DNA of 32,000 nucleotides from Candidatus Nanoarchaeia archaeon (GCA_028713895.1 JAQTNH010000001.1:157050-189049); one strand, 5' to 3'. Positions 7,265 to 22,670 are shown, counted from the stretch's first letter. The notes: a model not told the origin generated them from the sequence alone. Numbers and translations: made by a program.

Positions 7265-9097
7265 ATGACAAACCTTGGCAGCTTAATCAAAAAGCCCATT
7301 AGATACCTTAAAAAAAGAAGCAAGGTAAAGAGGGAAATGCGCAAGTTCGGCAAAAAGCATAATCTTGACTTTTCTTACATGAAATCGGGTTCTAAAGAGT
7401 TTGGATACAGCATTGGGAAGCTGTGTGACATGCCAAAAGAAGAAAGAACCGAGGTTTACAATGAAGTAAACTCTGTTTACCTCAGGAACGTTGAAATCGG
7501 GCCTGTATCCAGAAATCCGCTGAATCGTAAAAACCCCAGGGAAGCCTATGCAGAAGCTTTTGAGAACCATAGCAATCACATGATAGCCTGCGACGAGGAA
7601 GATGCAAAAGGCACAACACGAATAGAGAGAATATCCAAGCAAATAGCCAAAGCGTTTAAGGGTTTCAAAAAGAGGCATCCGCGGATTGTAGAAGTTGCGC
7701 GCTACACAGCAGCGATAGCTCTTGGCGTATTGATGCCCCTGAGCGGCATAAACATGTACAACGACTATCATTCTTATCTCTGTGACGACAAAACAATAAA
7801 CGTAAGCACAAGAGAAGCCGCAAAAAATATGCATTTTGATGAGCTCAACCTGGTTGAGGTGAAAAATAACAGCTCTGAAGCGCCTTATTTTGATTTTGAT
7901 ACAGGAAGCGGGGTGCTGACAGAAAGGATAGACCTCACAGGGGTAGAAAATCTAAACGGCACATCTTATACTATCGCAGACATAACAAGGAACCATCTTA
8001 GGGTAGCAGTCAACCACCCGACAGATATGGATAATCTTACTGAAGAGAACGTCAACAAAATGTTCAAAGACATGGGCTATAACATACAACTTAAGTTTGA
8101 CGCTACAAAAAACGAAACAGACGATTGTAATCCCCATTTTTCAGGGACTGATGGAAGCATTGATGCAGACGCGCATCTGTCCAAAAGTTCTGATAACGCA
8201 GAAAAGACAATTGTCCTGCACATAAAATATGATATACACAATGAAACACAAATCAGGGAAGTGCTTGATGATTTGCACAGCAAGAAGCTGGTGACAGAAA
8301 ATGCAGACGACCTCGTAAAGCTGATTGGCGAATATCCTGTGGTTTCCAATGAAGAAATAAACAAAACACTGGGCGCTGCCAAATTTGTCAAATACTGGGA
8401 GCTGCCGAACGGGGAACCCAGCTCCAATGCAACAGAGTATATCATAAAAAATGGGGTAAATGCCAAAACTAATCTGATATATGACGGCGAGTTTGAAAAG
8501 TGGAGCAAATCAAACAAGGATGTCCTGGAGAACGGCTCGCTGGTTGAGGTTCTTGAGTCCATTGATGATTATGTCTCGATGACAAGCGAATACAAGACAT
8601 CCGAACCAAGATTTATGTGCGTGGATTATACTGATAAATACATATTTGCGTTTAATGAAGCAAAAAAAACAAACAAAAATATGCAGGGGGCAGCAGCCTT
8701 TAAAGTTTATTCCACAAAAGCAGTATACGACACAGCTTCTGAGGGCCATGTATACGTGGGCGTAATGAGCGCATCCGGAGATAATCTGTATGTGTCTTTT
8801 GTTGACCCGACATTTTCAGACACCAAACATGCGCTAACCGAAATTTTTATAGACCCTTACAACACATTAACCAATGGAATCTCGGAAAAAGAAAATTTTG
8901 ATGCGCTTGACGGGACTCATCATATTGCGGTTAACAGTTCTCCTAAACTAGAAGCGCGTGCAGAAGCTGCAAAAGAACGCGCGATTATAACTGGCGGTTT
9001 GCAGATTTCTGCAGAAATTGCGGGCATTGCTGCAGCGACATGCGCATTCAGAGACAAAAAGTCAGAAAAAGCTAAACCAAAAAATGCTGGCGGCTAA
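7265..9097 (+). CDS. membrane protein with a transglutaminase-like (papain-fold Cys-His-Asp) domain, paralog 1
   Basis: FMCVDYT...(43 aa)...EGHVYVGV...(19 aa)...YVSFVDPTFSD matches the C / H / D-P-T order and spacing of the transglutaminase-core superfamily. Hydrophobic segments VARYTAAIALGVLMPLSGI and IITGGLQISAEIAGIAAATCAF. Basic tail ..KAKPKNAGG. Confidence 0.85.
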   Translation: MTNLGSLIKKPIRYLKKRSKVKREMRKFGKKHNLDFSYMKSGSKEFGYSIGKLCDMPKEERTEVYNEVNSVYLRNVEIGPVSRNPLNRKNPREAYAEAFENHSNHMIACDEEDAKGTTRIERISKQIAKAFKGFKKRHPRIVEVARYTAAIALGVLMPLSGINMYNDYHSYLCDDKTINVSTREAAKNMHFDELNLVEVKNNSSEAPYFDFDTGSGVLTERIDLTGVENLNGTSYTIADITRNHLRVAVNHPTDMDNLTEENVNKMFKDMGYNIQLKFDATKNETDDCNPHFSGTDGSIDADAHLSKSSDNAEKTIVLHIKYDIHNETQIREVLDDLHSKKLVTENADDLVKLIGEYPVVSNEEINKTLGAAKFVKYWELPNGEPSSNATEYIIKNGVNAKTNLIYDGEFEKWSKSNKDVLENGSLVEVLESIDDYVSMTSEYKTSEPRFMCVDYTDKYIFAFNEAKKTNKNMQGAAAFKVYSTKAVYDTASEGHVYVGVMSASGDNLYVSFVDPTFSDTKHALTEIFIDPYNTLTNGISEKENFDALDGTHHIAVNSSPKLEARAEAAKERAIITGGLQISAEIAGIAAATCAFRDKKSEKAKPKNAGG

Positions 9098-9099
9098 AA

Positions 9100-9726
9100 A
9101 TGGCATTCAAAAAACCAGCAGGGAAAAGAGAAGTTTTCGAGGAACTGTTCAGGCCTGTCAATGAGTTTTCTGAAATTGAGGAAGAAGTTAAACGCGTGTA
9201 CGCCTCAAATTTTAACCGCAGATTTCCTGAGAACTACAGTATCTCAATTATAGATGAGCGGCAATTCGCAAAATTAGATGCAGAGTGCTCTAAGATAAAG
9301 ATTGGACTTGGCGATTTTGATATGATAGTCCCTAGGGGCACCCCTGAGTTAGTCCAAACAATATCGGACAGGGGCCAAATTTATGAAAACGGGTATTTGC
9401 TCAAAGGAATTTCAAAGCTGTTTGCAATATCTCTTGCTTTTCATGCAATAGGGCACATGGAAACGGGTTTGGCAACTTTTGGGGCAAAAGATCGATTAAA
9501 ATCAGAGATTTTTGCATATGTCTGCCAGGATGAAATAACTGGAGAATATCTGATAATGAATGGACTCTGTGGATTTAATGCAGGCTTTATGGAAAATGCT
9601 TGGTATTCAACTGATGAATACCACAAAAAAGCATGGGAGTTTGCAAAGAAATTCCAGACAGTGCCATGGAGCCTAGAGAAGATAAAGGAGCATATCCTGC
9701 TTGAGGACAGTTTTAGGGAGCAATAG
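9100..9726 (+). CDS. hypothetical protein (208 aa), partner of paralog 1
   Basis: ATG is 2 nt after the upstream stop. No family recognised (contains AFHAIGHMETG). Confidence 0.8.
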   Translation: MAFKKPAGKREVFEELFRPVNEFSEIEEEVKRVYASNFNRRFPENYSISIIDERQFAKLDAECSKIKIGLGDFDMIVPRGTPELVQTISDRGQIYENGYLLKGISKLFAISLAFHAIGHMETGLATFGAKDRLKSEIFAYVCQDEITGEYLIMNGLCGFNAGFMENAWYSTDEYHKKAWEFAKKFQTVPWSLEKIKEHILLEDSFREQ

Positions 9727-9755
9727 GATTATACCCGTTTAAAAAGCAGCCCGGG

Positions 9756-9793
9756 CGCTTTCGAAAGGCTTATAAGTTACTACTGCTTAGTAG
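9756..9793 (+). promoter_or_regulatory. BRE/TATA promoter + CTACT-n4-AGTAG palindrome (second transglutaminase-like gene)
   Basis: gcgctttcgaaaggcttataag (9756-9776), then ctact gctt agtag (9780-9793), with ATG at 9800. The gene looks leaderless. Confidence 0.65.
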
Positions 9794-9799
9794 CCATTT

Positions 9800-11446
9800 A
9801 TGGAAGGCAAACGAATAAAACCATGGGAGTATAACCAGGTTATACCCGCAGATCCTGATACCCATGATAAACTTCTTGAAGAACATCTTAAGCACATGGA
9901 TGAATGCGACAAAGAAGAAAAGAATGAGCCTGTTTTTTTCAAAAAGATTAAAAAAAAGATAAACAAAATAAACAAAAAGATTGACGATTTCAGTGAAAAA
10001 CACCGCCGCATTTCTGCAGCCCTTGAATGCGCGGCTGTTGCTGGAACAGGAGCCTTGATTGTTTTTAGCTCTGCACACGGGCTTTTCCATGACAATAATA
10101 CAAATGAGACATACTTTCCGGATTACATAGGAACAGACCATTCTGTGGACATATCCACAGAGCATGCCTCGCATTCCGGATTGAGTCTGGAAGAGCTGGA
10201 CTTGGTGAACATAACAACACATAAAGGGATTTGTTTAAACTCAACAACAGAAACTGATTTGGGAGACACCATAGACAAAACGATTATGCCTGATGCACAG
10301 AGTGTGCGTGGTGATTTGATATGTTCAAAGAGGAGTGTTAGTTACTGCATCAACATGAATGGAATCCCCAATTTTGAGTTAAATGAAACAATCGCAAAGT
10401 CATTACTCGAAAAAATAGGTTACAGTGAGCTGGAAAGAGTCAACAGCACACAGGCAGGCAGCATGAAATTCACTAGCAAGGATGGGTGCATTGGGTTCTT
10501 AATGAATGAATATCCGTCCAGCGATTCAAAAAAGGACCTGATTGTCCATATAGAGCTAAGCAGGCTTAACATGCAGGAGCTCAAGGACAATCTGAAAATG
10601 ATGTATAACAACAGCATGGTCCCAAAAGTCTTAATTGATCCGGGCATGGCTATCTTATCGCATGTGTTAAGAGAAACAACACCTGAAGAAGAAAAGATGA
10701 TTCCTGGAGTGAAAGAACTGTTGGACAATGCAACATTCATGAGATACTGGGAGCTGCCGACAGGAAAAGCCACAGCAGATGCGGCGAAAAACCTGACAAA
10801 AGCAACAGACATCAATGAGCCCAGACTGACTTATGAAAGAAATCAAAAGGACTTTGGGGAGTGGCTGAACAAAACAGGCAATTCTGACACAATCAAAAAC
10901 GGCTCTCTTACAGAGGTTTTAGAAACAATAGAGAAATTCACAAGTGAGTCTTATTCCTACAAGAAGGAAGGGAAACCAACTGATTTTGTATGCACGGACT
11001 ATACTGTAGCATATATATCCGCGTTTAATGATGCAAAAAGGATGAACCCTGACCTTGAAAATGTCTATGCAACAGCAGCAAGGAGTTCAAGAGGCTTAAA
11101 TGAAATAGAGGGGCACGCTTATGTAAAATTGGTCTCGGTAGTAGGAAACAAGATGTACGTTTCCTTTGTTGACCCGACATATTCAGACGATGATGGAAGG
11201 GCTAAACTGGACAAAAATGAATTTGATGCGTGGGACAAAGAACATTACATAACAATGCTTAGTGACGCGGTTCCAAAGGATGCAAAAGTAGACTACAATG
11301 AACATATTGACACCCATGAAAATGATTACACCAACCTGATTCGAAAAAGCATCGCTTATACAGCAGGCATGCTGGGGTATATCACAACAAAGTTCATGGA
11401 TTTCATGAAAGCAAAAAAAGTCAAAAAAGCGAGCCTGGCAGGATAG
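9800..11446 (+). CDS. membrane protein with a transglutaminase-like Cys-His-Asp domain, paralog 2
   Basis: FVCTDYT...EGHAYVKL...YVSFVDPTYSDDD. Shares RYWELPTG / KYWELPNG and NGSLTEVLE / NGSLVEVLE blocks with 7265-9097. Has an N-terminal TM segment (ISAALECAAVAGTGALIVFSSA) and ends ..KVKKASLAG. Confidence 0.85.
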   Translation: MEGKRIKPWEYNQVIPADPDTHDKLLEEHLKHMDECDKEEKNEPVFFKKIKKKINKINKKIDDFSEKHRRISAALECAAVAGTGALIVFSSAHGLFHDNNTNETYFPDYIGTDHSVDISTEHASHSGLSLEELDLVNITTHKGICLNSTTETDLGDTIDKTIMPDAQSVRGDLICSKRSVSYCINMNGIPNFELNETIAKSLLEKIGYSELERVNSTQAGSMKFTSKDGCIGFLMNEYPSSDSKKDLIVHIELSRLNMQELKDNLKMMYNNSMVPKVLIDPGMAILSHVLRETTPEEEKMIPGVKELLDNATFMRYWELPTGKATADAAKNLTKATDINEPRLTYERNQKDFGEWLNKTGNSDTIKNGSLTEVLETIEKFTSESYSYKKEGKPTDFVCTDYTVAYISAFNDAKRMNPDLENVYATAARSSRGLNEIEGHAYVKLVSVVGNKMYVSFVDPTYSDDDGRAKLDKNEFDAWDKEHYITMLSDAVPKDAKVDYNEHIDTHENDYTNLIRKSIAYTAGMLGYITTKFMDFMKAKKVKKASLAG

Positions 11447-11449
11447 ATT

Positions 11450-11953
11450 ATGAAATTTGACGAAATAAAAAAATTTGCAAAGGAATATTACAGTAAGAAC
11501 AAGCTAGATGGAAAATTCGAAACAGACAAGTTTAATGAGGGTGCGGGGATATACTGCGGGGACAACCTCACAGACGGATTCTTCATGGAATACAGCGGCA
11601 AAGAACCAGATGTTGTCTTTGTATACAGCGCATTTTTCCTGCACAGGGAAATGAATTCTGCCGCTGCAAAAAGAATTGCAGAAAAGGCCCATGAAGAATT
11701 TGGGATTGAAGTAAACGTGCAACATGAAGGGCTCAAGCCTCAGGGCGCAAAATTTCTGAAACACAGATATAGGGGACAGCTGGATGTTTTAAGTTATACG
11801 ACTATCGCATACAAAATGGATGAGCTGGAACAAGCAGCTAATGCCGTGCTGACATGCAGAAACAAGCACCCGAAAAAGATACATGTGCTGGATATAATGA
11901 AAAAAATGCCTGCATGGCAGGATTTCCTTAAACAGGAATACGGGAGCGATTAG
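11450..11953 (+). CDS. hypothetical protein (167 aa), partner of paralog 2
   Basis: ATG is 3 nt after the upstream stop. No family recognised and no obvious similarity to 9100-9726. Confidence 0.8.
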   Translation: MKFDEIKKFAKEYYSKNKLDGKFETDKFNEGAGIYCGDNLTDGFFMEYSGKEPDVVFVYSAFFLHREMNSAAAKRIAEKAHEEFGIEVNVQHEGLKPQGAKFLKHRYRGQLDVLSYTTIAYKMDELEQAANAVLTCRNKHPKKIHVLDIMKKMPAWQDFLKQEYGSD

Positions 11954-12055
11954 GGCGGATTAAAGATTTTACAAAGAATAATTTTCAAGAACCCAAAATA
12001 AGAACTAAAGATTAATAAAGCAAAAAAAACCTTCTTTTATTTACCGTGTTTAAGT

Positions 12056-12127
12056 GGGCTAGTGGCGCAACGGTAGCGCGTCCGCCTTGCACGCGGGAGG
12101 CTGAGGGTTCGAATCCCTCCTGGTCCA
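12056..12127 (+). tRNA. tRNA-Ala (anticodon UGC), no intron, CCA not encoded
   Basis: Hand-folded cloverleaf: acceptor gggctag/ctggtcc with the G3:U70 alanine identity pair; D stem gcgc/gcgc; anticodon stem tccgc/gcggg with loop ctTGCac; T arm gaggg-ttcgaat-ccctc; discriminator A. Confidence 0.92.
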
Positions 12128-12130
12128 CTA

Positions 12131-12170
12131 ATCTTTTCTCTTGTAAGAGAAAACATTAATGAAAAGAGAA
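12131..12170 (+). terminator. T-rich hairpin + ACATTA element (copy after tRNA-Ala)
   Basis: ttttctcttgtaagagaaaa followed by cattaatgaaaagagaa. A further hairpin ctttcttttcgcaaaagaaag lies at 12195-12215. Confidence 0.5.
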
Positions 12171-12221
12171 CGTTAGGTTTTCTTTCAGTACAGGCTTTCT
12201 TTTCGCAAAAGAAAGGGTGTT

Positions 12222-12244
12222 TGCGAATTCATCCTGGTCCACTA
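12222..12244 (+). repeat. partial duplicate of the tRNA-Ala 3' end
   Basis: tgcgaattcatcctggtccacta versus ttcgaatccctcctggtccacta (12108-12130): 20/23 identical, last 13 nt identical. It is again followed by a T-rich hairpin (12245-12268). Confidence 0.6.
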
Positions 12245-12270
12245 TTTTTCTTTTTCACTAAAAGAAATAC

Positions 12271-12284
12271 AAAAGATTATAAAG
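12271..12284 (+). promoter_or_regulatory. TATA box for 12331 gene
   Basis: aaaagattataaag. An SD-like gggtgat sits 6 nt upstream of ATG 12331. Confidence 0.45.
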
Positions 12285-12330
12285 AGTTCATTAATTAAAC
12301 TATTAGGCGAGGTCTTCAGGGTGATTAGTA

Positions 12331-12876
12331 ATGTACATAACTTATAAAACTGATAAAATTGTCCAAAAAGAAAAATTAGAGAATGTTCTGCAGGATTTAA
12401 CCAAATTTGCTAAACAAGAGCATGATGTAGATTTAGATTTAAACTGCAGAGTAATCCCCTCTGATGTTGTCAACGAATTGGCAGGCGAATGCCAGTCTTA
12501 CACGTCATATTATAACCCTCCCAGCACTAATAAAGAGAAGATAAAAGATATTTTGCTATTGCCTCTTTCGGTAATAAATGATATATTAATATTGGGAAGT
12601 TCACATTCAGAATTTCATCCTGTCTTCGGTTCAACCAGGCTTCTGTATAATATACTGCAATCATACGACTCATTTTGGGTAGCTGATGATTGTGCTAAAA
12701 AACCGAAATCGTTTGCTTCAGCTGTGGCATACGAAGTAGGGTGTATTATCGCAAAACGCAGTTTAGACATGGATTATGACAGGGATATACGGGATTTTGC
12801 TGAGGGTTTTGAAAAAAAATTTATTAAAAATGCCGGAGTCCTTAAAAAGCAACGGGTAGTCTCAGCAAGTACTTAG
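12331..12876 (+). CDS. hypothetical protein (181 aa)
   Basis: ORF with an SD-like site and a TATA box. No family recognised. Confidence 0.75.
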   Translation: MYITYKTDKIVQKEKLENVLQDLTKFAKQEHDVDLDLNCRVIPSDVVNELAGECQSYTSYYNPPSTNKEKIKDILLLPLSVINDILILGSSHSEFHPVFGSTRLLYNILQSYDSFWVADDCAKKPKSFASAVAYEVGCIIAKRSLDMDYDRDIRDFAEGFEKKFIKNAGVLKKQRVVSAST

Positions 12877-12900
12877 AAAAACATTAACTAAAAAGAAACA
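12876..12900 (+). terminator. ACATTA element copy after the 12331 gene
   Basis: gaaaaacattaactaaaaagaaaca lies immediately after the stop codon. Confidence 0.35.
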
Positions 12901-12988
12901 TGTTATGTTTTCTAAAAAGGAAACTCTTTTAAACACTTTATCTGTTGAGTTGTTCGGTGGGGTTCTGTGAGGCTGAAAGAGCTAGACA

Positions 12989-13032
12989 GAAAGCTTTATA
13001 AGGAATAATTAACTACTCTATAGTAGTTAATT
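12989..13032 (+). promoter_or_regulatory. TATA box plus perfect 11-bp inverted repeat (candidate operator)
   Basis: gaaagctttataagg (12989-13003), then aattaactact-ctat-agtagttaatt (13007-13032), then SD ggggtga and ATG 13044. Confidence 0.6.
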
Positions 13033-13043
13033 GGGGTGAATTA

Positions 13044-14399
13044 ATGGCTAAAGGAAGCAATAAAAGTTATACAGAAGAGTACATACGGAGAACGCTAGGC
13101 AAAAATATCGACGGCACACCCATACAAAAGCCAAAAGTCGTTCCTGCTGTAGCCCCAAAAATAGAACTTGAGAGCATTAATATTTCTATGATTCCAGAAA
13201 CTCCTAAAACAATAATGGTCCAGCCAGAGCCTCCAAAGGCTGCTTATGAACCTGTGGAAGCTCCAAAGGCAGATTATGCGCCTGCAGAAACTCCTGAGCC
13301 TGAAGCAGAAGAACCAGAAGAAGAGGAAAAGCCAGGACTGTTCCAAAGAGTTTTGAATGTGTTTGGACTGCAAAAGAAAGAACCTATTGATGATTATGAA
13401 ATGCCTGAAGACAGGAAGATGAAAATTCTTGAAGAAAACAGCAATGAAACGAAATTAAAAAAATTGCTTGCTGAAAAGGAAATAAAGCTGCCTGAAGAGG
13501 GAATGCAGATTTCTGACTTCGAAGAAATTGTAATTGAAAAAGAAATTTTGCCTGAACTTAAGCTTTATGAGGAACCTAAGATAGAGTGGGACCAACCCAA
13601 GGTAGAACCTCCAAAAATGTCTGTTACAAAAAAAGCAGTTACTAAGACACCAACACTACGAAAGGATTCTTTGGAGGTTTATGCCAAGACTATCCAGAAC
13701 GAGCTTGGACTTACTCTTGAGGACATAACAGGAAAGCCTTACACAGTTAAAGAGATTGATTCAAATTATCAGGCTTACAGTTTAAGGAAACAGAAGGCAA
13801 GCATAGGCGACAAGATTATAGACAGCGACAAGAGGGATGTAACACGAGTTATAGATTATTTTGACAAAAGGGCAGACAAATTAAGAGCGGATTTCCCGGA
13901 TGTAGATGACGAATACGGGTTTTATACAAAAGTATTGGATGATGTAATAAACACAGATTTTGAAAAAGAAGACCAAAATGGATGGTACACAATTGATGAA
14001 CTTGCAATGTCTGCGATGAACAAAAAGATAAACAAGATTAGAACAATTTATGCTGCAATGGACAAAGCGGACAAAAAGATAGAGGATTACGAACAAAAAT
14101 TAAGTGCTGATGCAATCAAGAAAAAGAAAGACGAATTATCCAATCTAAGCGAGCCTGAACAGGCTGAACGAATTATAAATTACAGAGAAACCAACCTTAT
14201 AAGCTTGGCTGGGTACAAAGAGATAAGAAAAAAGATGGACAATGTTATTGAATTGTATGGCTACCCAGATGTTAACAGAGCGTATAAAACTCTTAAGAAC
14301 AAGCAGTTCACATTTGAAAGCGAATATTTCAAGGATTTCGAAGACCAGAAATCAAGCCTGCTTGTTTTGGTAAGCGATTTGGACGAATTAGAAGATTAA
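13044..14399 (+). CDS. acidic Lys/Glu-rich protein with a Pro/Glu/Ala low-complexity N-terminal region (451 aa)
   Basis: Long ORF with a good SD. PKAAYEPVEAPKADYAPAETPEPEAEEPEEEEKP, then coiled-coil-like K/E-rich sequence. No family recognised. Confidence 0.85.
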   Translation: MAKGSNKSYTEEYIRRTLGKNIDGTPIQKPKVVPAVAPKIELESINISMIPETPKTIMVQPEPPKAAYEPVEAPKADYAPAETPEPEAEEPEEEEKPGLFQRVLNVFGLQKKEPIDDYEMPEDRKMKILEENSNETKLKKLLAEKEIKLPEEGMQISDFEEIVIEKEILPELKLYEEPKIEWDQPKVEPPKMSVTKKAVTKTPTLRKDSLEVYAKTIQNELGLTLEDITGKPYTVKEIDSNYQAYSLRKQKASIGDKIIDSDKRDVTRVIDYFDKRADKLRADFPDVDDEYGFYTKVLDDVINTDFEKEDQNGWYTIDELAMSAMNKKINKIRTIYAAMDKADKKIEDYEQKLSADAIKKKKDELSNLSEPEQAERIINYRETNLISLAGYKEIRKKMDNVIELYGYPDVNRAYKTLKNKQFTFESEYFKDFEDQKSSLLVLVSDLDELED

Positions 14400-14428
14400 A
14401 AAGAAAAATAGTTATCAGGGCGCGTTGC

Positions 14429-14444
14429 AAAAGCTTTATAAATG
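14429..14444 (+). promoter_or_regulatory. candidate BRE/TATA promoter for 23S rRNA
   Basis: aaaagctttataaatg shares the AAAGCTTTATAA core with 12989-13003. It lies about 120 nt upstream of the 23S processing stem. Confidence 0.5.
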
Positions 14445-14565
14445 AAAAATTCTACAAAAACTATACGCCTGATACATTGATATCAAGCATTGTGGGCTTC
14501 CACTATTCTGTTGAATTTGGGAGTGACTGGCATCCAATTAGGATGAATCTTTCATGCTAATGGTG

Positions 14566-14587
14566 CTGTGCATAGGAATGAATTGTA
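14566..14587 (+). other. 5' arm of the 23S processing stem (pairs with 17554-17575)
   Basis: ctgtgcataggaatgaattgta is the exact reverse complement of tacaattcattcctatgcacag (22/22). Confidence 0.8.
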
Positions 14588-14590
14588 CCA

Positions 14591-17550
14591 GAAAAATATG
14601 CGCTACGCTATTAGGTGAATGGCTAGGCTCCAGAACTGAAGAAGGACGTGGCAAGCTGCGATAAGCTTCGGGTATCCGCACGCAGGATAAGATCCGAAGA
14701 TTTCCTAATGAGACTTCTTGGTTCTTAGTAATAAGAATCACTCGCATTGCGAGAGGGAACTCCGTGAATTGAAACATCTTAGTAACGGAAGGAAAAGAAA
14801 TCTATGAGATACCGTTAGTAACGGCGAGCGAAAGCGGTATAGGGCAAACTGAATCTGCCAGAGTAATTTGGTAGACATGTGGTGTTTGGAACTGCGTATA
14901 TTATCCTTGATTACAAGTCGAAGTCGGCTGGAACGCCGTACCTTAGAGGGTGATAGTCCCGTAAACAAAAGAAAAGAGGATAATGCAGTTTCCAGAGTAT
15001 ACGGCGTTGATATTCGTCGTAGAAAGTGGGTGGCAACGACATCTAACCCTAAATATTCCTGGAGACCGATAGCAAATTAGTACTGTTAAGGAATGCTGAA
15101 AAGGATCCAGAAATGGATGTTAAAAGAACCTGAAACCTAGTAGTTACGGTAATATGCGGCCAAAAAGGTAAATTCTACAGCTACGGCTCTAGAATTTTTT
15201 CCATGGTTGCATTATTCCTGTCGGAAAAAGAAGCAGGGAGTTTGTCTATGTGGCAAGGCTAAATGTAGTTATACATGGAGCCGAAGCGAAAGCAACAAGC
15301 ACGCAGGTGACAAGGTGCGGGGTATGAAAATGCCTGTAGTCACATGGACCAGACCCGAAGCGCGGTGATCTATGCCAAGTTAGGATGAAGTGGGAGTTAA
15401 TTCTCCCATGGAGGTCCGAAGAGGTTCTGCCTTACAAAGCGTTCTCATGAACTTGGTATAGGGGTGAAAGGCCAATCATACCGCGAGATAGCTGGCTCCC
15501 TCCGAGATGTACCTAAGTACAGCCTCGACTGAGTATGATAAGAAGGTAGAGCGACTGATAGGCCATTTAGGAACCGAAAGGTTTCGGTGGCCAGTCAAAC
15601 TCCGAATTTCTTATCTACGTAGAAGTCGGGAGTGGGATTGTCGGGGTAAGCTTGACAAACAAAAGGGAGAGAACTCTAACTGTGGTTAAGGTCCCTAAGT
15701 TCTAATTAAGTGAATCAAACTTTGTTATAAACCAAAAACAGCCGGGAGGTAGGCTCAGAAGCAGCCATCCTTCAAAAAGTGTGTAACAACTTACCGGTCT
15801 AGGTTTATAGCGGGAAAAATGGACGGGTCTAAATTAGACACCGATACCACAGAGAACACCTTATAGGTGTTATTTGGTAGGGGGGCGTTCGGCATGGGTA
15901 GAAGCTGGGTCGTAAGAACCAGTGGACCGTGTTGTATTGAGAATCCTGCGGGTAGTAGCAGCATAGATAGGTGAGAATCCTATCCGTCTTAAGAGCCAGG
16001 GTTCCTCGGCAATGCTTCGTCAGCCGAGGGTTAGTCGATCCTAACTGCAACGGTAAACACAGTTGCGGGAAAGGGAAACAGGTTAATAATCCTGTACCAT
16101 TTGGATACGTTAGGTAACTAAAGTCAGACAATGACGCTTTCGGTTAGGTGGAGTACAACCATCGTTGTATTTAACCAGTATAGTTCCAGGGAGTTCTGTA
16201 ACAGAGAGATCTGGAATAAACTGGGAACAGCTTGCGTATGTGAGTTCCATTGAAACCAAGAGCCCGTGAAAAATTGTTCTGAAAGGACTCCAAGTGTTCG
16301 TACCAAGATCCGGGACAGGTGTCTCGAGCTTAGAAGGCTAAGACGTGTGGGGACAATTTAGTCAAGGGAACTCGGCAAAATAGCCCTTTAACTTAGGGAT
16401 ATAGGGTGCCTGCGGCAGTGATTTTCGAATTGTTGTTGCAGGCCTCAGAAACCAGGGGAATCGGACTGTTTAACAAAAACATAGCTGATTGCTAATCGGA
16501 AACGACTTGTACAATCGGCGACGCCTGCCCAGTGCAGGTATCCGAACATGAGTTTCAACTCGTATAAGGACCTGTAAACGGCGGAGGTAACTGTAACCTT
16601 CTTAAGCAAGCGCAATGCCTTGCCATTTAATTGATGGCTTTGCGAACGGCGTAACTAGATTCCCACTGTCCCTGACTAAAGCCCCGTGAACACACTATTC
16701 TGGTGCAAAGGCCAGAGAGCCCCATTGGGACGACAAGACCCCAGGAGCTTTACTACAGCCTGTACTTGTGATTCAAATTTTTCTTTATAGAGTAAGCAGG
16801 AGAGGTTATGCGTGCATCGCAAGATGTACGTTACTCGAAAGTGTAACACTGCTATTAAGAGTTTGGGTTGCTCATCTCATATTTAGTATGGGAAACACGT
16901 ACTGGTGGGTAGTTTGGCTGGGGTGGCACGCCATCGATAAGAAATCAATGGCGCCCTAAGGTCAACTCAATCGGGTCAGAACTCCGATATAGAGTGTAAA
17001 GGCAAAAGTTGGCTTGACTGTTTTTGAAAAAGATTCAAAAGCAGGTACGAAAGTAGGGCTTAGCGAACCGCAATATCTCTTTCGTTGAGTGTTTGTGATG
17101 ACAGAAAAGTTACCCTGGGGATAACAGAGTTGTCGCCTACGATAGCTCATATAGACTAGGCGGCTTGCTACATCGACGTCGGCTCCTCCCATCCTGGTTG
17201 TGCAGCAGCAACCAAGGGTACGGGTGTCCACCGGTTAAAGGGGGTCGTGAGCTGGGTTCAATACGCTGCGAGGCAGTATGGTTTTTATCTAGTGGGGCTG
17301 TTTGGTGACTGAGTGGAAGATGGTATTAGTACGAGAGGAACATACTATCGGCGCCTCTAGTAAACCAGTTGTCTGATAAGGCAGAAGCTGGGTAGCCACG
17401 CGTCAGCGGATAAATGCTGAAAGCATCTAAGCATGAAGCTGCTCGCAAAAAAAGTCACTTACAGGGCTGCGGTAGAAGACCGCGTTGATAGGATCGGGAT
17501 GTAATTTCGTAAGAAGCAGTCCACGATTACTAATCGCTCTTTGCATATTT
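14591..17550 (+). rRNA. rrl: 23S (LSU) rRNA, archaeal
   Basis: ggtgaatggctaggctc..gaagaaggacgtggcaagctgcgataagc near the 5' end; gggataacag..catcgacgtcggctc (peptidyl-transferase region); agtacgagaggaac (sarcin-ricin loop). Ends pair as aaatatgc / gcatattt. No large intron or ORF noted. Confidence 0.95.
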
Positions 17551-17553
17551 AGT

Positions 17554-17575: not shown

Positions 17576-17591
17576 TATCGTTATATTTTAA

Positions 17592-17629
17592 TTTTTCTTT
17601 TTCTAAAAGAAACATTAATTAAAGAAAAC
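17592..17629 (+). terminator. T-rich hairpin + ACATTA element (copy after 23S)
   Basis: tttttctttttctaaaagaaacattaattaaagaaaac. A second ACATTA box, aaacattaatgaaaaagaaac, lies at 17667-17687. Confidence 0.5.
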
Positions 17630-17816
17630 TTTCCGTGAACGCTTTTAGCGAAGCGCGAAAGGGTTCAAACATTAATGAAAAAGAAACTTTACTGTGTGTA
17701 GCGTGAGCTTTCTTTTCACAAGGGTTTTCTTTCAGCCCTTTAGAAAAGCGCTGGCGGAAAATTCTTCCATGAATGCTTCTTTCTAAGAAGGATTCAAAGA
17801 AAAGGCTTTGCAAGAA

Positions 17817-17907: not shown

Positions 17908-18498
17908 ATGGCATACAACTTAAAAGAACTCACAAAAAAAATAAATGGCTGCACCCGCAGCGAAAAACATCTCAAACCGGATGAATCTGAAGACATGCAG
18001 AGGGCTATCAAGGATTATTTTGCGGAAAACATAACAAGGCTCAGCAAACAAGAATTTGAAAAGATTACAGAAGTGGGGAGCTATCATATAGACTTAAAAA
18101 AACTTTTTATCTCAGAGTACACCGAAAATGTTGTAAAGCCCTATATCATCAGCCAAGCAGAAAAACGTCCTGGCAAAAATTTCCACCCTGCTGAATTCAT
18201 CAAGTATCTCAAAATAAAGGAACTTCCTTTTGTGGCTGTAGCAAGGGCAACAAGCCAGCTCTGCAATGAGCGGGACACGGACTTGGTCAGTGTTATAGAA
18301 CTCAACAGCAAGAAATACTATCGTTACGACCCTGAATGCGCAGAACTGATGAGGGGGCCCATAGTCCGCCAAAAAACCAGCTGCCGCGGAGCCTATTGCA
18401 ATACGAACAGATGCCCAAAAAACAAGCCAGTCCCATCCCAAGAGAGCGCCAAAGTCCTGCCTGAAAGCCAGAGCTGCGAAACACTTATAAATTCTTAA
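17908..18498 (+). CDS. winged-helix + C-terminal four-Cys tail protein, paralog A (196 aa)
   Basis: ..FHPAEFIKYL...FVAVARATSQLCNER..LVSVIELNSKKYYRYDPECAEL..(x)..CRGAYCNTNRCPK. Shares this architecture with 19492, 20637 and 21251. Confidence 0.85.
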   Translation: MAYNLKELTKKINGCTRSEKHLKPDESEDMQRAIKDYFAENITRLSKQEFEKITEVGSYHIDLKKLFISEYTENVVKPYIISQAEKRPGKNFHPAEFIKYLKIKELPFVAVARATSQLCNERDTDLVSVIELNSKKYYRYDPECAELMRGPIVRQKTSCRGAYCNTNRCPKNKPVPSQESAKVLPESQSCETLINS

Positions 18499-18516
18499 CT
18501 AATAGGTAGTTACAAT
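18484..18516 (+). promoter_or_regulatory. 33-bp perfect repeat copy 1: TATA + TAACTA-n5-TAGTTA palindrome
   Basis: cttataaattcttaactaataggtagttacaat is identical to 21629-21661. It overlaps the stop codon of the upstream gene. ATG 18531 follows 15 nt later, after an SD-like gggtg. Confidence 0.7.
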
Positions 18517-21619: not shown

Positions 21620-21628
21620 TTCGAAATC

Positions 21629-21661
21629 CTTATAAATTCTTAACTAATAGGTAGTTACAAT
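21629..21661 (+). promoter_or_regulatory. 33-bp perfect repeat copy 2: TATA + palindrome
   Basis: Identical to 18484-18516. ATG 21662 follows immediately, so the gene looks leaderless. Confidence 0.7.
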
Positions 21662-22257: not shown

Positions 22258-22601
22258 ATGTGGGTGAGTGGTTGACTACAGATGCTGATTAGGTAATCAG
22301 TATTTAGGAAGCTTCGTCCATCAGCCCTTTTCGCTTCGCGCAAGCGCTGGCGGAAACGGGTGTATGTTCACCATGGCAACATGTCTCCGGAAACGGAGGG
22401 CTCTGACGCAGAAAAAAACTGCTCTTTGCGCAGAATGAGGCCGAAAGGCTGACATTGCAAAGAAACAGGTGAAATCGTCAGCCTGAACGATGCAAGGGCT
22501 TTGACCTGCTTAGTCGAATGTCAACGCGCCTGTCTAAGACGGCAAATGAGGTGAATATTTGCCTGAGGGGCGACAGAAGACGAGCTATAGCTCACCCACA
22601 T
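22258..22601 (+). ncRNA. rnpB: RNase P RNA
   Basis: Termini pair (atgtgggtgag 22258-22268 / ctcacccacat 22591-22601, P1). CR-I-like AGGAAGCUUCGUCC (22306-22319) and CR-V-like ACAGAAGACGAGCUAU (22573-22588) form P4 (agct-U-cgtc / gacgagct) with the conserved bulged U. P3-like hairpin ctgatt-aggt-aatcag. uuagucgaaug resembles CUAGAUGAAUG of bacterial RNase P. Confidence 0.8.
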
Positions 22602-22604
22602 AAT

Positions 22605-22670
22605 CTTTCTTTTCCCGAAAAGAAACATTAGTGAAAGAAAAGGGATTTGAAAGCATTAATGGAAGAAAAC
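22605..22670 (+). terminator. T-rich hairpin + ACATTA element (copy after RNase P RNA)
   Basis: ctttcttttcccgaaaagaaacattagtgaaagaaaagggatttgaaagcattaatggaagaaaac. Confidence 0.5.

What the first reader, a model, noticed from the sequence alone, without database searches (positions are those of the whole stretch)
7265..11953. Duplicated two-gene module: membrane-anchored transglutaminase-like protein plus tightly coupled small partner
Proteins 7265-9097 (610 aa) and 9800-11446 (548 aa) are clear paralogs, sharing the blocks [KR]YWELP.G, NGSL.EVLE.I and YVSFVDPT[FY]SD. Both carry Cys...His...Asp in the transglutaminase-core order and spacing: FMCVDYT / FVCTDYT, about 43 aa, EGH[VA]YV, about 19 aa, FVDPT. 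Each has an N-terminal basic region, one TM segment, a large presumably extracellular body and a C-terminal hydrophobic/amphipathic segment with a basic tail. Each has its own copy of the shared promoter. Each is followed within 2-3 nt by a small soluble ORF (208 aa and 167 aa), and the two partners are not obviously related to each other. The enzyme-plus-variable-partner layout resembles effector/immunity or protease/inhibitor pairs. In an episymbiotic DPANN-type archaeon, surface Cys-protease/transglutaminase-fold proteins are plausible host-interaction or cell-envelope remodelling factors. The function is inference; the paralogy, catalytic triad pattern and coupling are visible.
Basis: partly seen in the sequence, partly recalled or inferred. 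Interest (0 to 1): 0.65.

Follow-up and report, generated by a model that had tools for sequence, protein, structure and literature searches.

The report
Tandem archaeal transglutaminase-like membrane proteins
Two neighbouring genes in a small archaeal genome encode distant copies of a rare, undescribed membrane-anchored surface protein that probably has a transglutaminase/papain-type Cys-His-Asp active site, but the small genes attached to each copy are unrelated orphans that do not travel with the enzyme in other genomes, so this is not a conserved enzyme-partner system.

Summary
ORFs 7265-9097 (610 aa) and 9800-11446 (548 aa) are paralogs (BLASTP E=1e-35, 26% identity). Each has its own BRE/TATA block 25 nt before the ATG and is followed after 2-3 nt by a small, unrelated ORF.

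The fold call is moderately supported. No Pfam, NCBIfam or PDB sequence hit reaches threshold, and Foldseek finds nothing significant. However, an exhaustive HMM search finds a tiny family (19 clusters among 1.84 billion). In 18 aligned members His is invariant and Cys and Asp are present in 17. An AlphaFold model (pLDDT 83) puts the Cys at the N-terminus of a helix and His and Asp on consecutive strands. Profile-profile alignment to genuine Transglut_core domains gives 73% probability (E=3e-5; reversed controls E~0.6) with the triad in register.

The partner idea is not supported. In nine homolog contexts the downstream gene is different every time: HisRS, Lhr helicase, unrelated small ORFs, or nothing. 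The partners have no detectable relatives and no export signal, while the enzyme domain is predicted to be extracellular.

Verdict: a new, divergent family within a known superfamily, duplicated in tandem, carrying lineage-specific operon passengers. Modest interest.

The parts
7220..7267 (+). Promoter block of paralog 1. It holds a BRE/TATA (CGCTTTCGAAAGGTTTATA, 7221-7239) and a conserved TATAGTAGTAA block. The TATA box ends 25 nt before the ATG, so the mRNA is probably leaderless or has a very short leader.
   Evidence: family D3. The same block is at 3110 and 9755.
7265..9097 (+). Paralog 1 (610 aa). Layout: basic cytoplasmic N-terminus (aa 1-140); TM anchor (aa about 141-163); alpha/beta middle domain (about 235-340); C-terminal transglutaminase-like domain (about 355-560); C-terminal hydrophobic helix (573-596); basic tail.
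8327..8944 (+). Predicted catalytic domain of paralog 1 (aa 355-560). Key codons: Cys452 8618-8620, His495 8747-8749, Asp514 8804-8806. A second conserved motif, FDALDxxH, holds Asp549 and His552.
9100..9726 (+). Small ORF 1 (208 aa). It starts 2 nt after the stop of paralog 1. It has no signal peptide or TM segment, no family hit and no detected relatives. An SD-like GGCGG lies inside the last Gly codons of the upstream gene.
9755..9802 (+). Promoter block of paralog 2 (CGCTTTCGAAAGGCTTATA, 9756-9774). The TATA box ends 25 nt before the ATG.
9800..11446 (+). Paralog 2 (548 aa). Same architecture as paralog 1 with a shorter cytoplasmic N-terminus. TM is at aa about 69-92. Key codons: Cys398 10991-10993, His439 11114-11116, Asp458 11171-11173.
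11450..11953 (+). Small ORF 2 (167 aa). It starts 3 nt after the stop of paralog 2. It is soluble, has no family hit and no detected relatives. It is absent downstream of the closest ortholog fragment (L021).

Best explanation
The two large genes are old tandem paralogs of a rare, so far undescribed archaeal protein family.

Each protein is held in the membrane by an N-terminal anchor helix, with a basic cytoplasmic N-terminus, and usually by a second, C-terminal helix with a basic tail. The body between them faces the outside of the cell. It consists of an alpha/beta middle domain and a C-terminal domain that is a very divergent member of the transglutaminase-like (papain-fold) superfamily, with a Cys-His-Asp triad.

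The most likely activity is thiol-dependent cleavage or formation of peptide or isopeptide bonds on proteins of the organism's own envelope, such as the S-layer, pili or other surface proteins. This would take place at the outer face of the membrane.

Each paralog is transcribed from its own strong consensus promoter as a short operon together with whatever small gene lies downstream. These small genes are lineage-specific cytoplasmic orphans. They are translationally coupled through an SD-like sequence buried in the last codons of the enzyme gene, and they are not conserved functional partners.

- **Shown:** paralogy, family membership, triad conservation, operon layout and non-conservation of the partners.
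- **Inferred from models and profiles:** fold and topology.
- **Inferred only:** substrate and reaction type.
For: - **Paralogy:** BLASTP E=1e-35.
- **Family size:** an exhaustive HMM search finds only 19 clusters at E<=1e-3 among 1.84 billion representatives. Those with a source name are mostly archaeal MAG proteins, one of them labelled Thermoplasmata, and the gene contexts are archaeal.
- **Triad conservation:** in the 18-sequence domain alignment both His residues are invariant, and Cys, Asp514, Ala547 and Asp549 are at least 90% conserved.
- **Structure model:** the AlphaFold2 domain model has pLDDT 83 and pTM 0.83. Cys is the first residue of helix 98-115. His immediately precedes strand 142-151, and Asp immediately follows strand 153-159. 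This is the canonical papain/transglutaminase placement described in PMC10318531.
- **Weak direct hits, all pointing the same way:**
  - Transglut_core is the only Pfam family hit by more than one family member, covering the Cys region.
  - The top PDB sequence hit of the bacterial-type subgroup is 9crn_A, a transglutaminase-like domain protein. Cys and His are aligned, and the family's DP of DPT falls on the chain's GDP (E=0.61).
- **Profile-profile comparison:** hhalign of the family against 10 domains fetched from plasmids. Five of the ten were scanned, and all five are PF01841 members (E 2e-8 to 4e-16).
  - All 18 family sequences: Prob 72.6%, E=3.2e-5, with Cys/Cys, His/His and VDPTW/VD.TW in register.
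  - Archaeal-only subset: Prob 46.6%, E=2e-4.
  - Reversed-sequence controls: Prob 0.1%, E 0.6-0.8.
- **Best compact fold matches,** although not significant, are other Cys-His-Asp papain-type domains: PeiP/PeiW and an agglutinin C-terminal domain protein.
- **Outside location of the body:** K/R-rich segments flank the TM on the N-terminal side and form the C-terminal tail. N-x-S/T sequons are about twofold enriched in the body (11 vs 5.3, 11 vs 4.8, 12 vs 5.3).
- **Operon layout and SD-like junctions:**
Against: - No direct profile or fold search reaches significance for the window proteins:
  - Pfam and NCBIfam give nothing.
  - PDB sequence search gives nothing.
  - Foldseek against PDB has no hit at E<=0.001, with best TM-score about 0.24.
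  - hhalign against PeiP is negative.
- The profile-profile probability is 73%, not above 90%. It falls to 47% without the bacterial-type subgroup and to 3% with only the three closest sequences.
- One member (P0007) lacks the Cys and one (P0010) has Glu in place of Asp.
- A second motif, DALDxxH, is as conserved as the triad and the model does not explain it.
- The hydrophobic segments are marginal by Kyte-Doolittle (1.4-1.9). No dedicated topology predictor was available.
Confidence: 0.6

Rival explanations
1. Each enzyme and its small downstream ORF form a functional pair, either effector/immunity or protease/inhibitor, and the partners diversify rapidly.
For: The 2-3 nt coupling appears twice in a row, with unrelated partners. 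The closest ortholog, P0002, is also followed after 2 nt by yet another unrelated small ORF. This pattern fits fast-evolving immunity genes.
Against: - Neither partner has any relative beside any family member in nine contexts. The downstream genes are:
  - L001: a different small ORF
  - L004 and L007: HisRS
  - L005: a 131-aa ORF, then PCNA
  - L006: a 479-aa protein with an HELHH motif
  - L009: Lhr helicase
  - L021: no gene, then tRNA-Ala
  - L022: an unrelated 135-aa ORF

- There are no relatives in JGI metagenomes or IMG/VR.
- There are no significant PADLOC hits (best E=0.028).
- The partners lack a signal peptide or TM segment, while the enzyme domain is predicted to be extracellular. 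The compartments therefore do not match for an inhibitor.
- The same junction (CTGGGCGGATAAAAATGG) couples the unrelated 843-aa gene to its small downstream ORF. Tight coupling is therefore the local genome style.
- The enzyme carries two membrane anchors and no recognisable delivery domain.
Confidence: 0.07
2. The small ORFs are genuine but lineage-specific cytoplasmic adaptors or regulators. They would bind the cytoplasmic N-terminal helical tail of their cognate enzyme. This is functional coupling without deep conservation, loosely like vasohibin with its small partner SVBP.
For: - Co-transcription and translational coupling are present.
- The long cytoplasmic N-terminal region is predicted helical.
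- That region carries a conserved HxxHMxxCDxE motif in the three closest members.
- Codon usage says the small ORFs are real genes.
- Vasohibin/SVBP is a precedent for a transglutaminase-like protease with a small obligate partner (PMC4866520 and PMC7543661, listed).
Against: There is no direct evidence of interaction. No conservation exists even at 49-52% enzyme identity (L001, L021). The partners are unrelated to each other, although the N-terminal tails they would have to bind are homologous.
Confidence: 0.15
3. The conserved domain is not a thiol enzyme. It could be a metal- or ligand-binding or structural surface module whose key residues are the invariant His495 and His552 with Asp514 and Asp549. 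In that case the Cys would be incidental.
For: Both His residues are invariant, while Cys is missing in P0007. The DALDxxH motif has no counterpart in the profile-profile alignment to Transglut_core domains. No significant fold or profile match exists to any enzyme.
Against: Cys is kept in 17 of 18 members and sits at the helix N-terminus, exactly as in papain-fold enzymes. The triad aligns in register with bona fide Transglut_core domains. Inactive members are common in enzyme families.
Confidence: 0.15

Closest known systems
Prokaryotic transglutaminase-like superfamily (Pfam Transglut_core PF01841, clan Peptidase_CA; Makarova, Aravind & Koonin 1999, as cited in PMC10318531)
   Same: - The order and spacing of Cys...His...Asp match.
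- The local motifs match: xCxxY[AT] at a helix start, GHxY/W-V on a strand, and [FY]VDPT[WYF]xD after the next strand. Genuine members have vCxGYA, HAWN and vD.TWdD.
- A preceding helix aligns to the family's xxAIhDYvxxxxxY helix.
- The profile-profile match has the triad in register.
- Many members are extracytoplasmic, as this one is predicted to be.
   Different: - The window proteins score below the Pfam threshold: no hit at all for them, and 14.7 bits against a cut-off of 23 for the best family member.
- They carry an extra DALDxxH motif, with His invariant and Asp at least 90% conserved.
- They have an upstream YWELP/W-containing helical subdomain.
- The ectodomain is bracketed by two transmembrane helices.
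- The family is tiny and mostly archaeal.
Pseudomurein endoisopeptidases PeiP/PeiW (Peptidase_C71; PDB 8z4f, 8jx4)
   Same: These are archaea-associated Cys-His-Asp enzymes of transglutaminase-like fold that act on cell-envelope isopeptide bonds. They are the best compact Foldseek matches in the PDB.
   Different: The match is not significant (E about 1-3, TM 0.24). hhalign against PeiP is negative. There are no pseudomurein-binding repeats. Pei enzymes are soluble phage lysins, not membrane-anchored host proteins.
9crn_A-type bacterial 'transglutaminase domain-containing' surface proteins (Firmicutes and cyanobacteria, often fused to Ig-like, SLH or LRR modules)
   Same: This is the top PDB sequence hit of the family's bacterial-type subgroup. 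hhalign places Cys, His and Asp in register. It is the source of the reference profile. These are surface-exposed, multi-domain proteins.
   Different: E=0.61 by HMM search. The accessory domains differ. The window proteins are anchored by TM helices rather than by SLH or Ig modules.
Vasohibin-SVBP (a transglutaminase-like Cys protease with a small obligate partner)
   Same: It is a transglutaminase-like fold enzyme that works with a small partner protein.
   Different: SVBP is conserved with vasohibin and shares its compartment. Here the small ORFs are not conserved and are predicted to lie on the other side of the membrane from the catalytic domain.

Membership tests
Transglutaminase-like superfamily (Pfam PF01841 Transglut_core / clan Peptidase_CA) | Scores above the curated gathering threshold of the family HMM | tested here: not met
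   There is no PF01841 hit for either window protein at E<=1. Among the 18 family domains only 2 give weak hits, at E=0.037 (14.7 bits) and E=0.18 (12.5 bits) against a cut-off of 23 bits.
Transglutaminase-like superfamily (Pfam PF01841 Transglut_core / clan Peptidase_CA) | Cys, His and Asp in that order, conserved across homologs | tested here: met
   In the 18-sequence alignment His is 18/18, Cys 17/18 and Asp 17/18, with one Glu. Spacing is 41-43 aa and 19 aa in the window proteins.
Transglutaminase-like superfamily (Pfam PF01841 Transglut_core / clan Peptidase_CA) | [quoted passage not shown] | tested here: met
   AlphaFold2 model with pLDDT 83. Helix 98-115 starts at the Cys. His141 immediately precedes strand 142-151, and Asp160 immediately follows strand 153-159. 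This rests on the secondary structure of a model only. Three-dimensional proximity could not be measured because no coordinates were available.
Transglutaminase-like superfamily (Pfam PF01841 Transglut_core / clan Peptidase_CA) | Profile-profile similarity to bona fide members with the catalytic residues in register | tested here: met
   hhalign of A2 against 10 plasmid-borne domains, five of which were scanned and are PF01841 members, gives Prob 72.6%, E=3.2e-5 and 83 columns, with Cys, His and Asp aligned. The archaeal-only subset gives 46.6% and E=2e-4. Reversed controls give 0.1% and E 0.6-0.8. This is moderate, not decisive, strength.
Transglutaminase-like superfamily (Pfam PF01841 Transglut_core / clan Peptidase_CA) | Three-dimensional similarity to a solved member | tested here: inconclusive
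   Foldseek against PDB finds no hit at E<=0.001. The best compact matches are PeiP 8z4f (E=1.1, TM 0.24, 114 columns) and PeiW 8jx4. In BFVD the best compact match is an agglutinin C-terminal (papain-like) domain protein, prob 0.47.
Transglutaminase-like superfamily (Pfam PF01841 Transglut_core / clan Peptidase_CA) | Thiol-dependent peptidase, isopeptidase or transamidase activity | not testable with these tools
   This needs biochemistry on the purified ectodomain and a C452A/C398A control.
BTLCP (bacterial transglutaminase-like cysteine proteinase, PF06035) | Match to the family HMM | tested here: not met
   Pfam scans list no hit at E<=1 (window proteins) or E<=10 (family domains).
Peptidase_C71 (Pei pseudomurein endoisopeptidase) | Sequence or profile similarity to the Pei catalytic domain | tested here: not met
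   hhalign of A2 against PeiP gives Prob 0.9% and aligns to the wrong region. PeiP itself scores 318 bits on PF12386, whereas family members give no such hit.
Effector-immunity / toxin-antitoxin / protease-inhibitor gene pair | The partner gene co-occurs with the enzyme gene across genomes | tested here: not met
   In nine homolog contexts, none has a relative of 9100-9726 or 11450-11953. The L021 ortholog of paralog 2 is followed by non-coding DNA and tRNA-Ala.
Effector-immunity / toxin-antitoxin / protease-inhibitor gene pair | The partner resides in the compartment where the enzyme domain acts | tested here: not met
   The partners have no TM-grade hydrophobic segment (best 1.38 in the 208-aa ORF, none in the 167-aa ORF). 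The enzyme body is predicted to lie outside, from the positive-inside pattern and sequon enrichment. This is a prediction, not an experiment.
Effector-immunity / toxin-antitoxin / protease-inhibitor gene pair | Similarity to known defence, toxin or immunity families | tested here: not met
   PADLOC, PHROGs, Pfam and NCBIfam show nothing significant for any of the four proteins.

The most novel reading that the evidence does not exclude
The three consecutive 'large protein + tightly coupled small orphan ORF' units are 3949-6480/6483-7019, 7265-9097/9100-9726 and 9800-11446/11450-11953. The first two share the junction CTGG(G)CGGNTAAAAATGG.

Under the novel reading these form a cassette system. 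Rapidly exchanged cytoplasmic proteins would be plugged in behind surface or envelope enzymes and would control them across the membrane through the enzymes' cytoplasmic tails. In a host-dependent, small-genome archaeon this would be a previously unknown way of tuning surface remodelling or host contact.
Probability: 0.08. Interest if true: 0.6.

Novelty: new variant of a known kind. Interest (0 to 1): 0.33.

Why it matters
If the fold assignment is right, this adds a small, mostly archaeal family to the transglutaminase/papain superfamily that no current profile library recognises. Its distinctive features are an ectodomain bracketed by two transmembrane helices and an extra DALDxxH motif that is as conserved as the triad.

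Such enzymes are candidates for maturation or cross-linking of archaeal surface proteins, an area with few known players. The family would also give annotators a handle on a set of 'hypothetical proteins' in Thermoplasmata and small-genome archaea.

It does not open a long-standing question. The more exciting part of the original idea, a duplicated enzyme-partner module, does not survive comparison with other genomes.

Tried and rejected
- **Direct family assignment.** Pfam, NCBIfam, PHROGs and PADLOC scans of all four proteins and their neighbours gave nothing usable.
- **PDB sequence searches** with profiles A1 and A2 gave nothing.
- **Word-indexed protein searches** (3 of 3 used) returned only the window proteins, P0002 and P0021. 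The exhaustive HMM search was the productive one.
- **Foldseek** of the domain model against PDB and BFVD, and of the full-length model against PDB, gave no significant hit. The full-length model only gave weak Mog1/DcrB/START-like matches for the middle domain (E>=0.014, high rmsd), which I do not rely on.
- **hhalign against the single PeiP sequence** was negative.
- **Harvesting transglutaminase-like sequences from the PDB** with the 9crn fragment found only itself. I replaced this with tblastn against plasmids.
- **GTDB representative genomes:**
  - A1 patterns gave no relatives.
  - The degenerate DNA pattern for [YF]VSF[VI]DPT[WYF]xD gave no match.
  - This lineage is therefore not represented there.
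- **Partner relatives** were sought in JGI metagenomes and IMG/VR and none were found.
- **Pairwise BLASTP and hhalign** among all small ORFs of the window and of homolog loci showed no relationships.
- **Strain variation for dN/dS** could not be used, because the two Logan contigs are identical to the window.
- **A paralog-specific regulatory element** was rejected. The promoter block is shared with other genes.
- **An integrated mobile element** was considered because of the duplicated tRNA-Ala 3' end. No integrase was seen and the repeats are only 114 nt apart, so I did not pursue it.


Full report
**1. Setting**

The window is archaeal chromosome. It holds a 16S rRNA (1385-2932), a 23S rRNA (14591-17553), an archaeal RNase P RNA (22260-22599) and one tRNA-Ala(UGC) at 12056-12128. 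The window's own proteins are on record on a contig of 956 kb, so the genome is small. I could not test its phylum. The finding lies in the 11.6 kb of protein-coding DNA that separates the 16S from the 23S gene.

**2. Check of the observation**

- **Paralogy.** The 610-aa and 548-aa proteins align over about 510 residues at 26% identity, BLASTP E=1e-35. Every quoted motif is present. Even at the DNA level the motif regions are 73-82% identical over 45-55 nt.
- **Triad spacing.** Cys452/His495/Asp514 in the first protein and Cys398/His439/Asp458 in the second give spacings of 43/19 and 41/19 residues.
- **Small ORFs.** They start 2 and 3 nt after the stop codons. They are unrelated to each other. 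Both carry the in-frame codon-usage signal of real genes.
- **Promoter.** The 19-mer CGCTTTCGAAAGGYTTATA occurs at 7221 and 9756, with none expected by chance. In both cases the TATA box ends 25 nt before the ATG, which suggests leaderless transcripts. It is a general promoter type of this region, not a paralog-specific element. The same 48-nt block, including a downstream TATAGTAGTAA box, precedes the GNAT gene at 3110, and a weaker copy precedes gene 13044.
- **Topology.** Hydrophobicity gives one N-terminal anchor in each protein. The C-terminal segment is marginal in the 610-aa protein (1.44) and below the cut-off in the 548-aa protein. It is strongly hydrophobic in several homologs.

**3. 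What the large proteins are**

Neither protein hits any Pfam, NCBIfam, PHROGs or PADLOC model or any PDB sequence. Word-indexed searches of 5.8 billion proteins found a single outside relative, P0002 (52% identity).

An exhaustive HMM search of 1.84 billion cluster representatives found 19 proteins at E<=1e-3. This is a very small family. Members with a source are mostly archaeal MAG proteins annotated 'hypothetical', one of them from a Thermoplasmata MAG. Their loci carry archaeal housekeeping genes such as HisRS, S8e, SRP19, tRNA-intron endonuclease, PCNA, TFS, PolB and a tubulin-family (Pfam Tubulin) gene. A more distant subgroup (P0014, P0019, P0020, P0021) and a HEAT/TPR fusion protein (P0016) share only the C-terminal domain.

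In an alignment of 18 C-terminal domains, His495 and His552 are invariant. Cys452, Asp514, Ala547 and Asp549 are conserved in at least 90%. One member lacks the Cys and one has Glu for the Asp.

**4. Fold**

With the 18-sequence alignment, AlphaFold2 gives a confident domain model (pLDDT 83, pTM 0.83). The Cys is the first residue of a long helix (98-115). The His immediately precedes one strand (142-151) and the Asp immediately follows the next (153-159). [quoted passage not shown]

Foldseek found no significant match in the PDB or BFVD. The only compact alignments were to other Cys-His-Asp papain-type domains: PeiP/PeiW in the PDB and an agglutinin C-terminal domain protein in BFVD.

Weak sequence signals all point the same way:
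- Transglut_core is the only Pfam family hit by more than one member (E=0.037 and 0.18, over the Cys region).
- The top PDB hit of the bacterial-type subgroup is 9crn_A, a 'transglutaminase-like domain-containing protein'. Cys and His are aligned and the DPT motif falls on the chain's GDP (E=0.61).

For a quantitative test I used the 9crn fragment to collect ten genuine domains from plasmid records. Five of them were scanned and score 35-60 bits on PF01841. I then compared profiles with hhalign:

| Comparison with the Transglut_core profile | Probability | E-value |
|---|---|---|
| All 18 family domains (83 columns; Cys/Cys, His/His, VDPTW/VD.TW in register) | 72.6% | 3.2e-5 |
| Archaeal members only | 46.6% | 2e-4 |
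| Three closest sequences only | 2.7% | 0.017 |
| Reversed-sequence controls | 0.1% | 0.6-0.8 |

I conclude, with moderate confidence, that the domain is a very divergent transglutaminase-like domain. It fails the formal Pfam threshold, so I describe it as a new family of that superfamily rather than a Transglut_core member.

**5. Architecture and location**

The family shares the following layout:
- a short-to-long basic cytoplasmic N-terminus;
- one TM helix;
- a conserved Y..D....(N)VST.E motif just outside the membrane;
- an alpha/beta middle domain;
- the catalytic-type domain;
- in many members, a C-terminal TM helix with a basic tail.

K/R residues are enriched before the first helix and in the C-terminal tail. 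N-x-S/T sequons are about twice as frequent in the body as composition predicts (11 vs 5.3, 11 vs 4.8, 12 vs 5.3). Both points fit an outward-facing, probably glycosylated body.

The full-length model is mediocre (pLDDT 69). Its middle domain gave only weak, unreliable fold matches.

**6. The small 'partners'**

I looked at the gene after the enzyme gene in nine other places:

| Locus | Homolog | Downstream of the enzyme gene |
|---|---|---|
| L001 | P0002, ortholog of paralog 1 (52% identity) | A different small ORF after 2 nt. The enzyme gene also overlaps an upstream nucleotidyltransferase gene by ATGA, so it lacks its own promoter there. |
| L021 | Ortholog fragment of paralog 2 (49% identity) | No gene at all; conserved non-coding DNA, then tRNA-Ala |
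| L004 | P0004 (Thermoplasmata MAG) | HisRS |
| L007, L008 | P0008 (same gene order as L004) | HisRS |
| L005 | P0005 | An unrelated 131-aa ORF, then PCNA |
| L006 | P0007 | A 479-aa protein with an HELHH motif |
| L009 | P0010 | Lhr helicase |
| L022 | P0006 | An unrelated 135-aa ORF |

Further points against a conserved partner:
- tblastn of the window's small proteins against all these loci found nothing.
- Scans of JGI metagenomes and IMG/VR found no relatives of either partner.
- The partners have no export signal or TM segment, so they are predicted to be cytoplasmic while the enzyme domain is outside.
- Tight coupling is the local style. The unrelated 843-aa gene upstream is followed after 2 nt by a 178-aa ORF, through almost the same junction as paralog 1 (CTGGGCGGATAAAAATGG against CTGGCGGCTAAAAATGG). 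The third junction is CTGGCAGGATAGATTATG.
- These junctions place an SD-like GGCGG/AGGA, complementary to the 16S 3' end GGATCACCTCCT, inside the last Gly codons of the upstream gene. This also explains why all three large proteins end in -GG or -AG.

**7. Mechanism proposed**

- **Shown:** two old tandem paralogs of a rare archaeal family; each with its own consensus promoter; each co-transcribed with a non-conserved small gene; a conserved Cys-His-Asp signature.
- **Inferred from models and profiles:** the transglutaminase-like fold and the outward orientation.
- **Inferred only:** the enzymes cut or form peptide or isopeptide bonds on the cell's own surface proteins at the outer membrane face.

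The presence of family members next to housekeeping genes in Thermoplasmata MAGs argues for a cell-autonomous envelope function rather than a DPANN-specific host-attack role.

The DALDxxH motif, which is as conserved as the triad, remains unexplained. It keeps open a rival in which the domain is a metal- or ligand-binding module.

**8. Novelty and score**

The fold class and the idea of extracytoplasmic transglutaminase-like proteins in prokaryotes are known. What is new is a family invisible to current profile libraries, with its own motifs and an ectodomain bracketed by two TM helices. I rate it 'new variant of a known kind', interest about 0.33.

The most novel reading still open is a cassette system of exchangeable cytoplasmic regulators behind surface enzymes. 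I give it a probability of about 0.08.

Noticed in passing
window 7022-7225 (+), just upstream of the finding; L021 325-520: A non-coding stretch of about 190 nt is roughly 88% identical (by eye from alignment A6; 82% mean column identity over the whole alignment) to a stretch in an unrelated metagenome contig. Neighbouring proteins there are only about 50% identical. On that contig it lies between the ortholog of paralog 2 and tRNA-Ala. There is no Rfam hit and no shared ORF. The folding z-score is only about -0.2 to -0.3, and two sequences give no covariation. It is a candidate new ncRNA or regulatory element.
   Followed up: partly
window 1385-17553: The 16S and 23S rRNA genes are separated by 11.6 kb that holds nine + strand ORFs (seven between 16S and tRNA-Ala, two after it). 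tRNA-Ala(UGC), the classical archaeal spacer tRNA, still sits between them at 12056-12128. No 5S rRNA was detected in the window. This looks like a former rRNA operon split by insertions of genes.
   Followed up: no
window 3034-3083, 12130-12175, 17586-17635 (with 17667-17691), 22599-22648: A conserved hairpin-containing motif (about 50 nt, CTTTTC...GAAAAG...AACATTA...AAAGAAAAGGG) follows the 16S, 23S and RNase P RNA genes. A related 25-nt motif follows tRNA-Ala. It is probably a shared terminator or processing signal for stable RNAs (families D2 and D17).
   Followed up: no
window 12110-12135 and 12224-12249: The 3' end of tRNA-Ala (CGAATCCCTCCTGGTCCACTA) is repeated 114 nt downstream at 85% identity. 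This resembles an att-site remnant of an element that integrated into the tRNA. No integrase was seen nearby.
   Followed up: partly
window 6465-6486, 9084-9103, 11432-11452: Three consecutive 'large gene / small gene' junctions place an SD-like GGCGG or AGGA inside the final Gly codons of the upstream gene. The first two are nearly identical (CTGGGCGGATAAAAATGG and CTGGCGGCTAAAAATGG). All three large proteins therefore end in -GG or -AG.
   Followed up: partly
window 3949-6480 (+), repeats at 4249-4923: An 843-aa protein contains at least nine tandem 57-nt (19-aa) repeats with weak bactofilin-like similarity (Pfam E=1.2e-5, below threshold). It is followed after 2 nt by a 178-aa orphan ORF (6483-7019).
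   Followed up: no
window 18477-18516 and 21622-21661: A second promoter-like 40-mer (CTTATAAATTCTTAACTAATAGGTAG core), 95% identical between its two copies, precedes genes 18531 and 21662. It differs from the promoter block used in the inter-rRNA region.
   Followed up: no
window 7565-7603 (aa 101-113 of the 610-aa protein) and the equivalent in 9800-11446: The three closest family members share ExHxxHMxxCDxE in a predicted cytoplasmic helix. His, His and Cys fall on one helical face, so this may be a small metal site.
   Followed up: no
L001 2-613 and 2442-2774: In the only contig carrying the ortholog of paralog 1, the gene is flanked on both sides by nucleotidyltransferase-like genes. Upstream there are weak Pfam NTP_transf_2 and MTPAP-like hits. 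The downstream gene has a G..(x)n..DIDLL-type motif, seen by eye only.
   Followed up: partly
P0016 (987 aa) and P0017 (2102 aa), homologs: The domain also occurs fused to long HEAT/Arm and TPR repeat arrays (P0016). A 67-residue piece of the middle region matches seven times in a 2102-aa protein (P0017). The modules are therefore reused in very different architectures.
   Followed up: no
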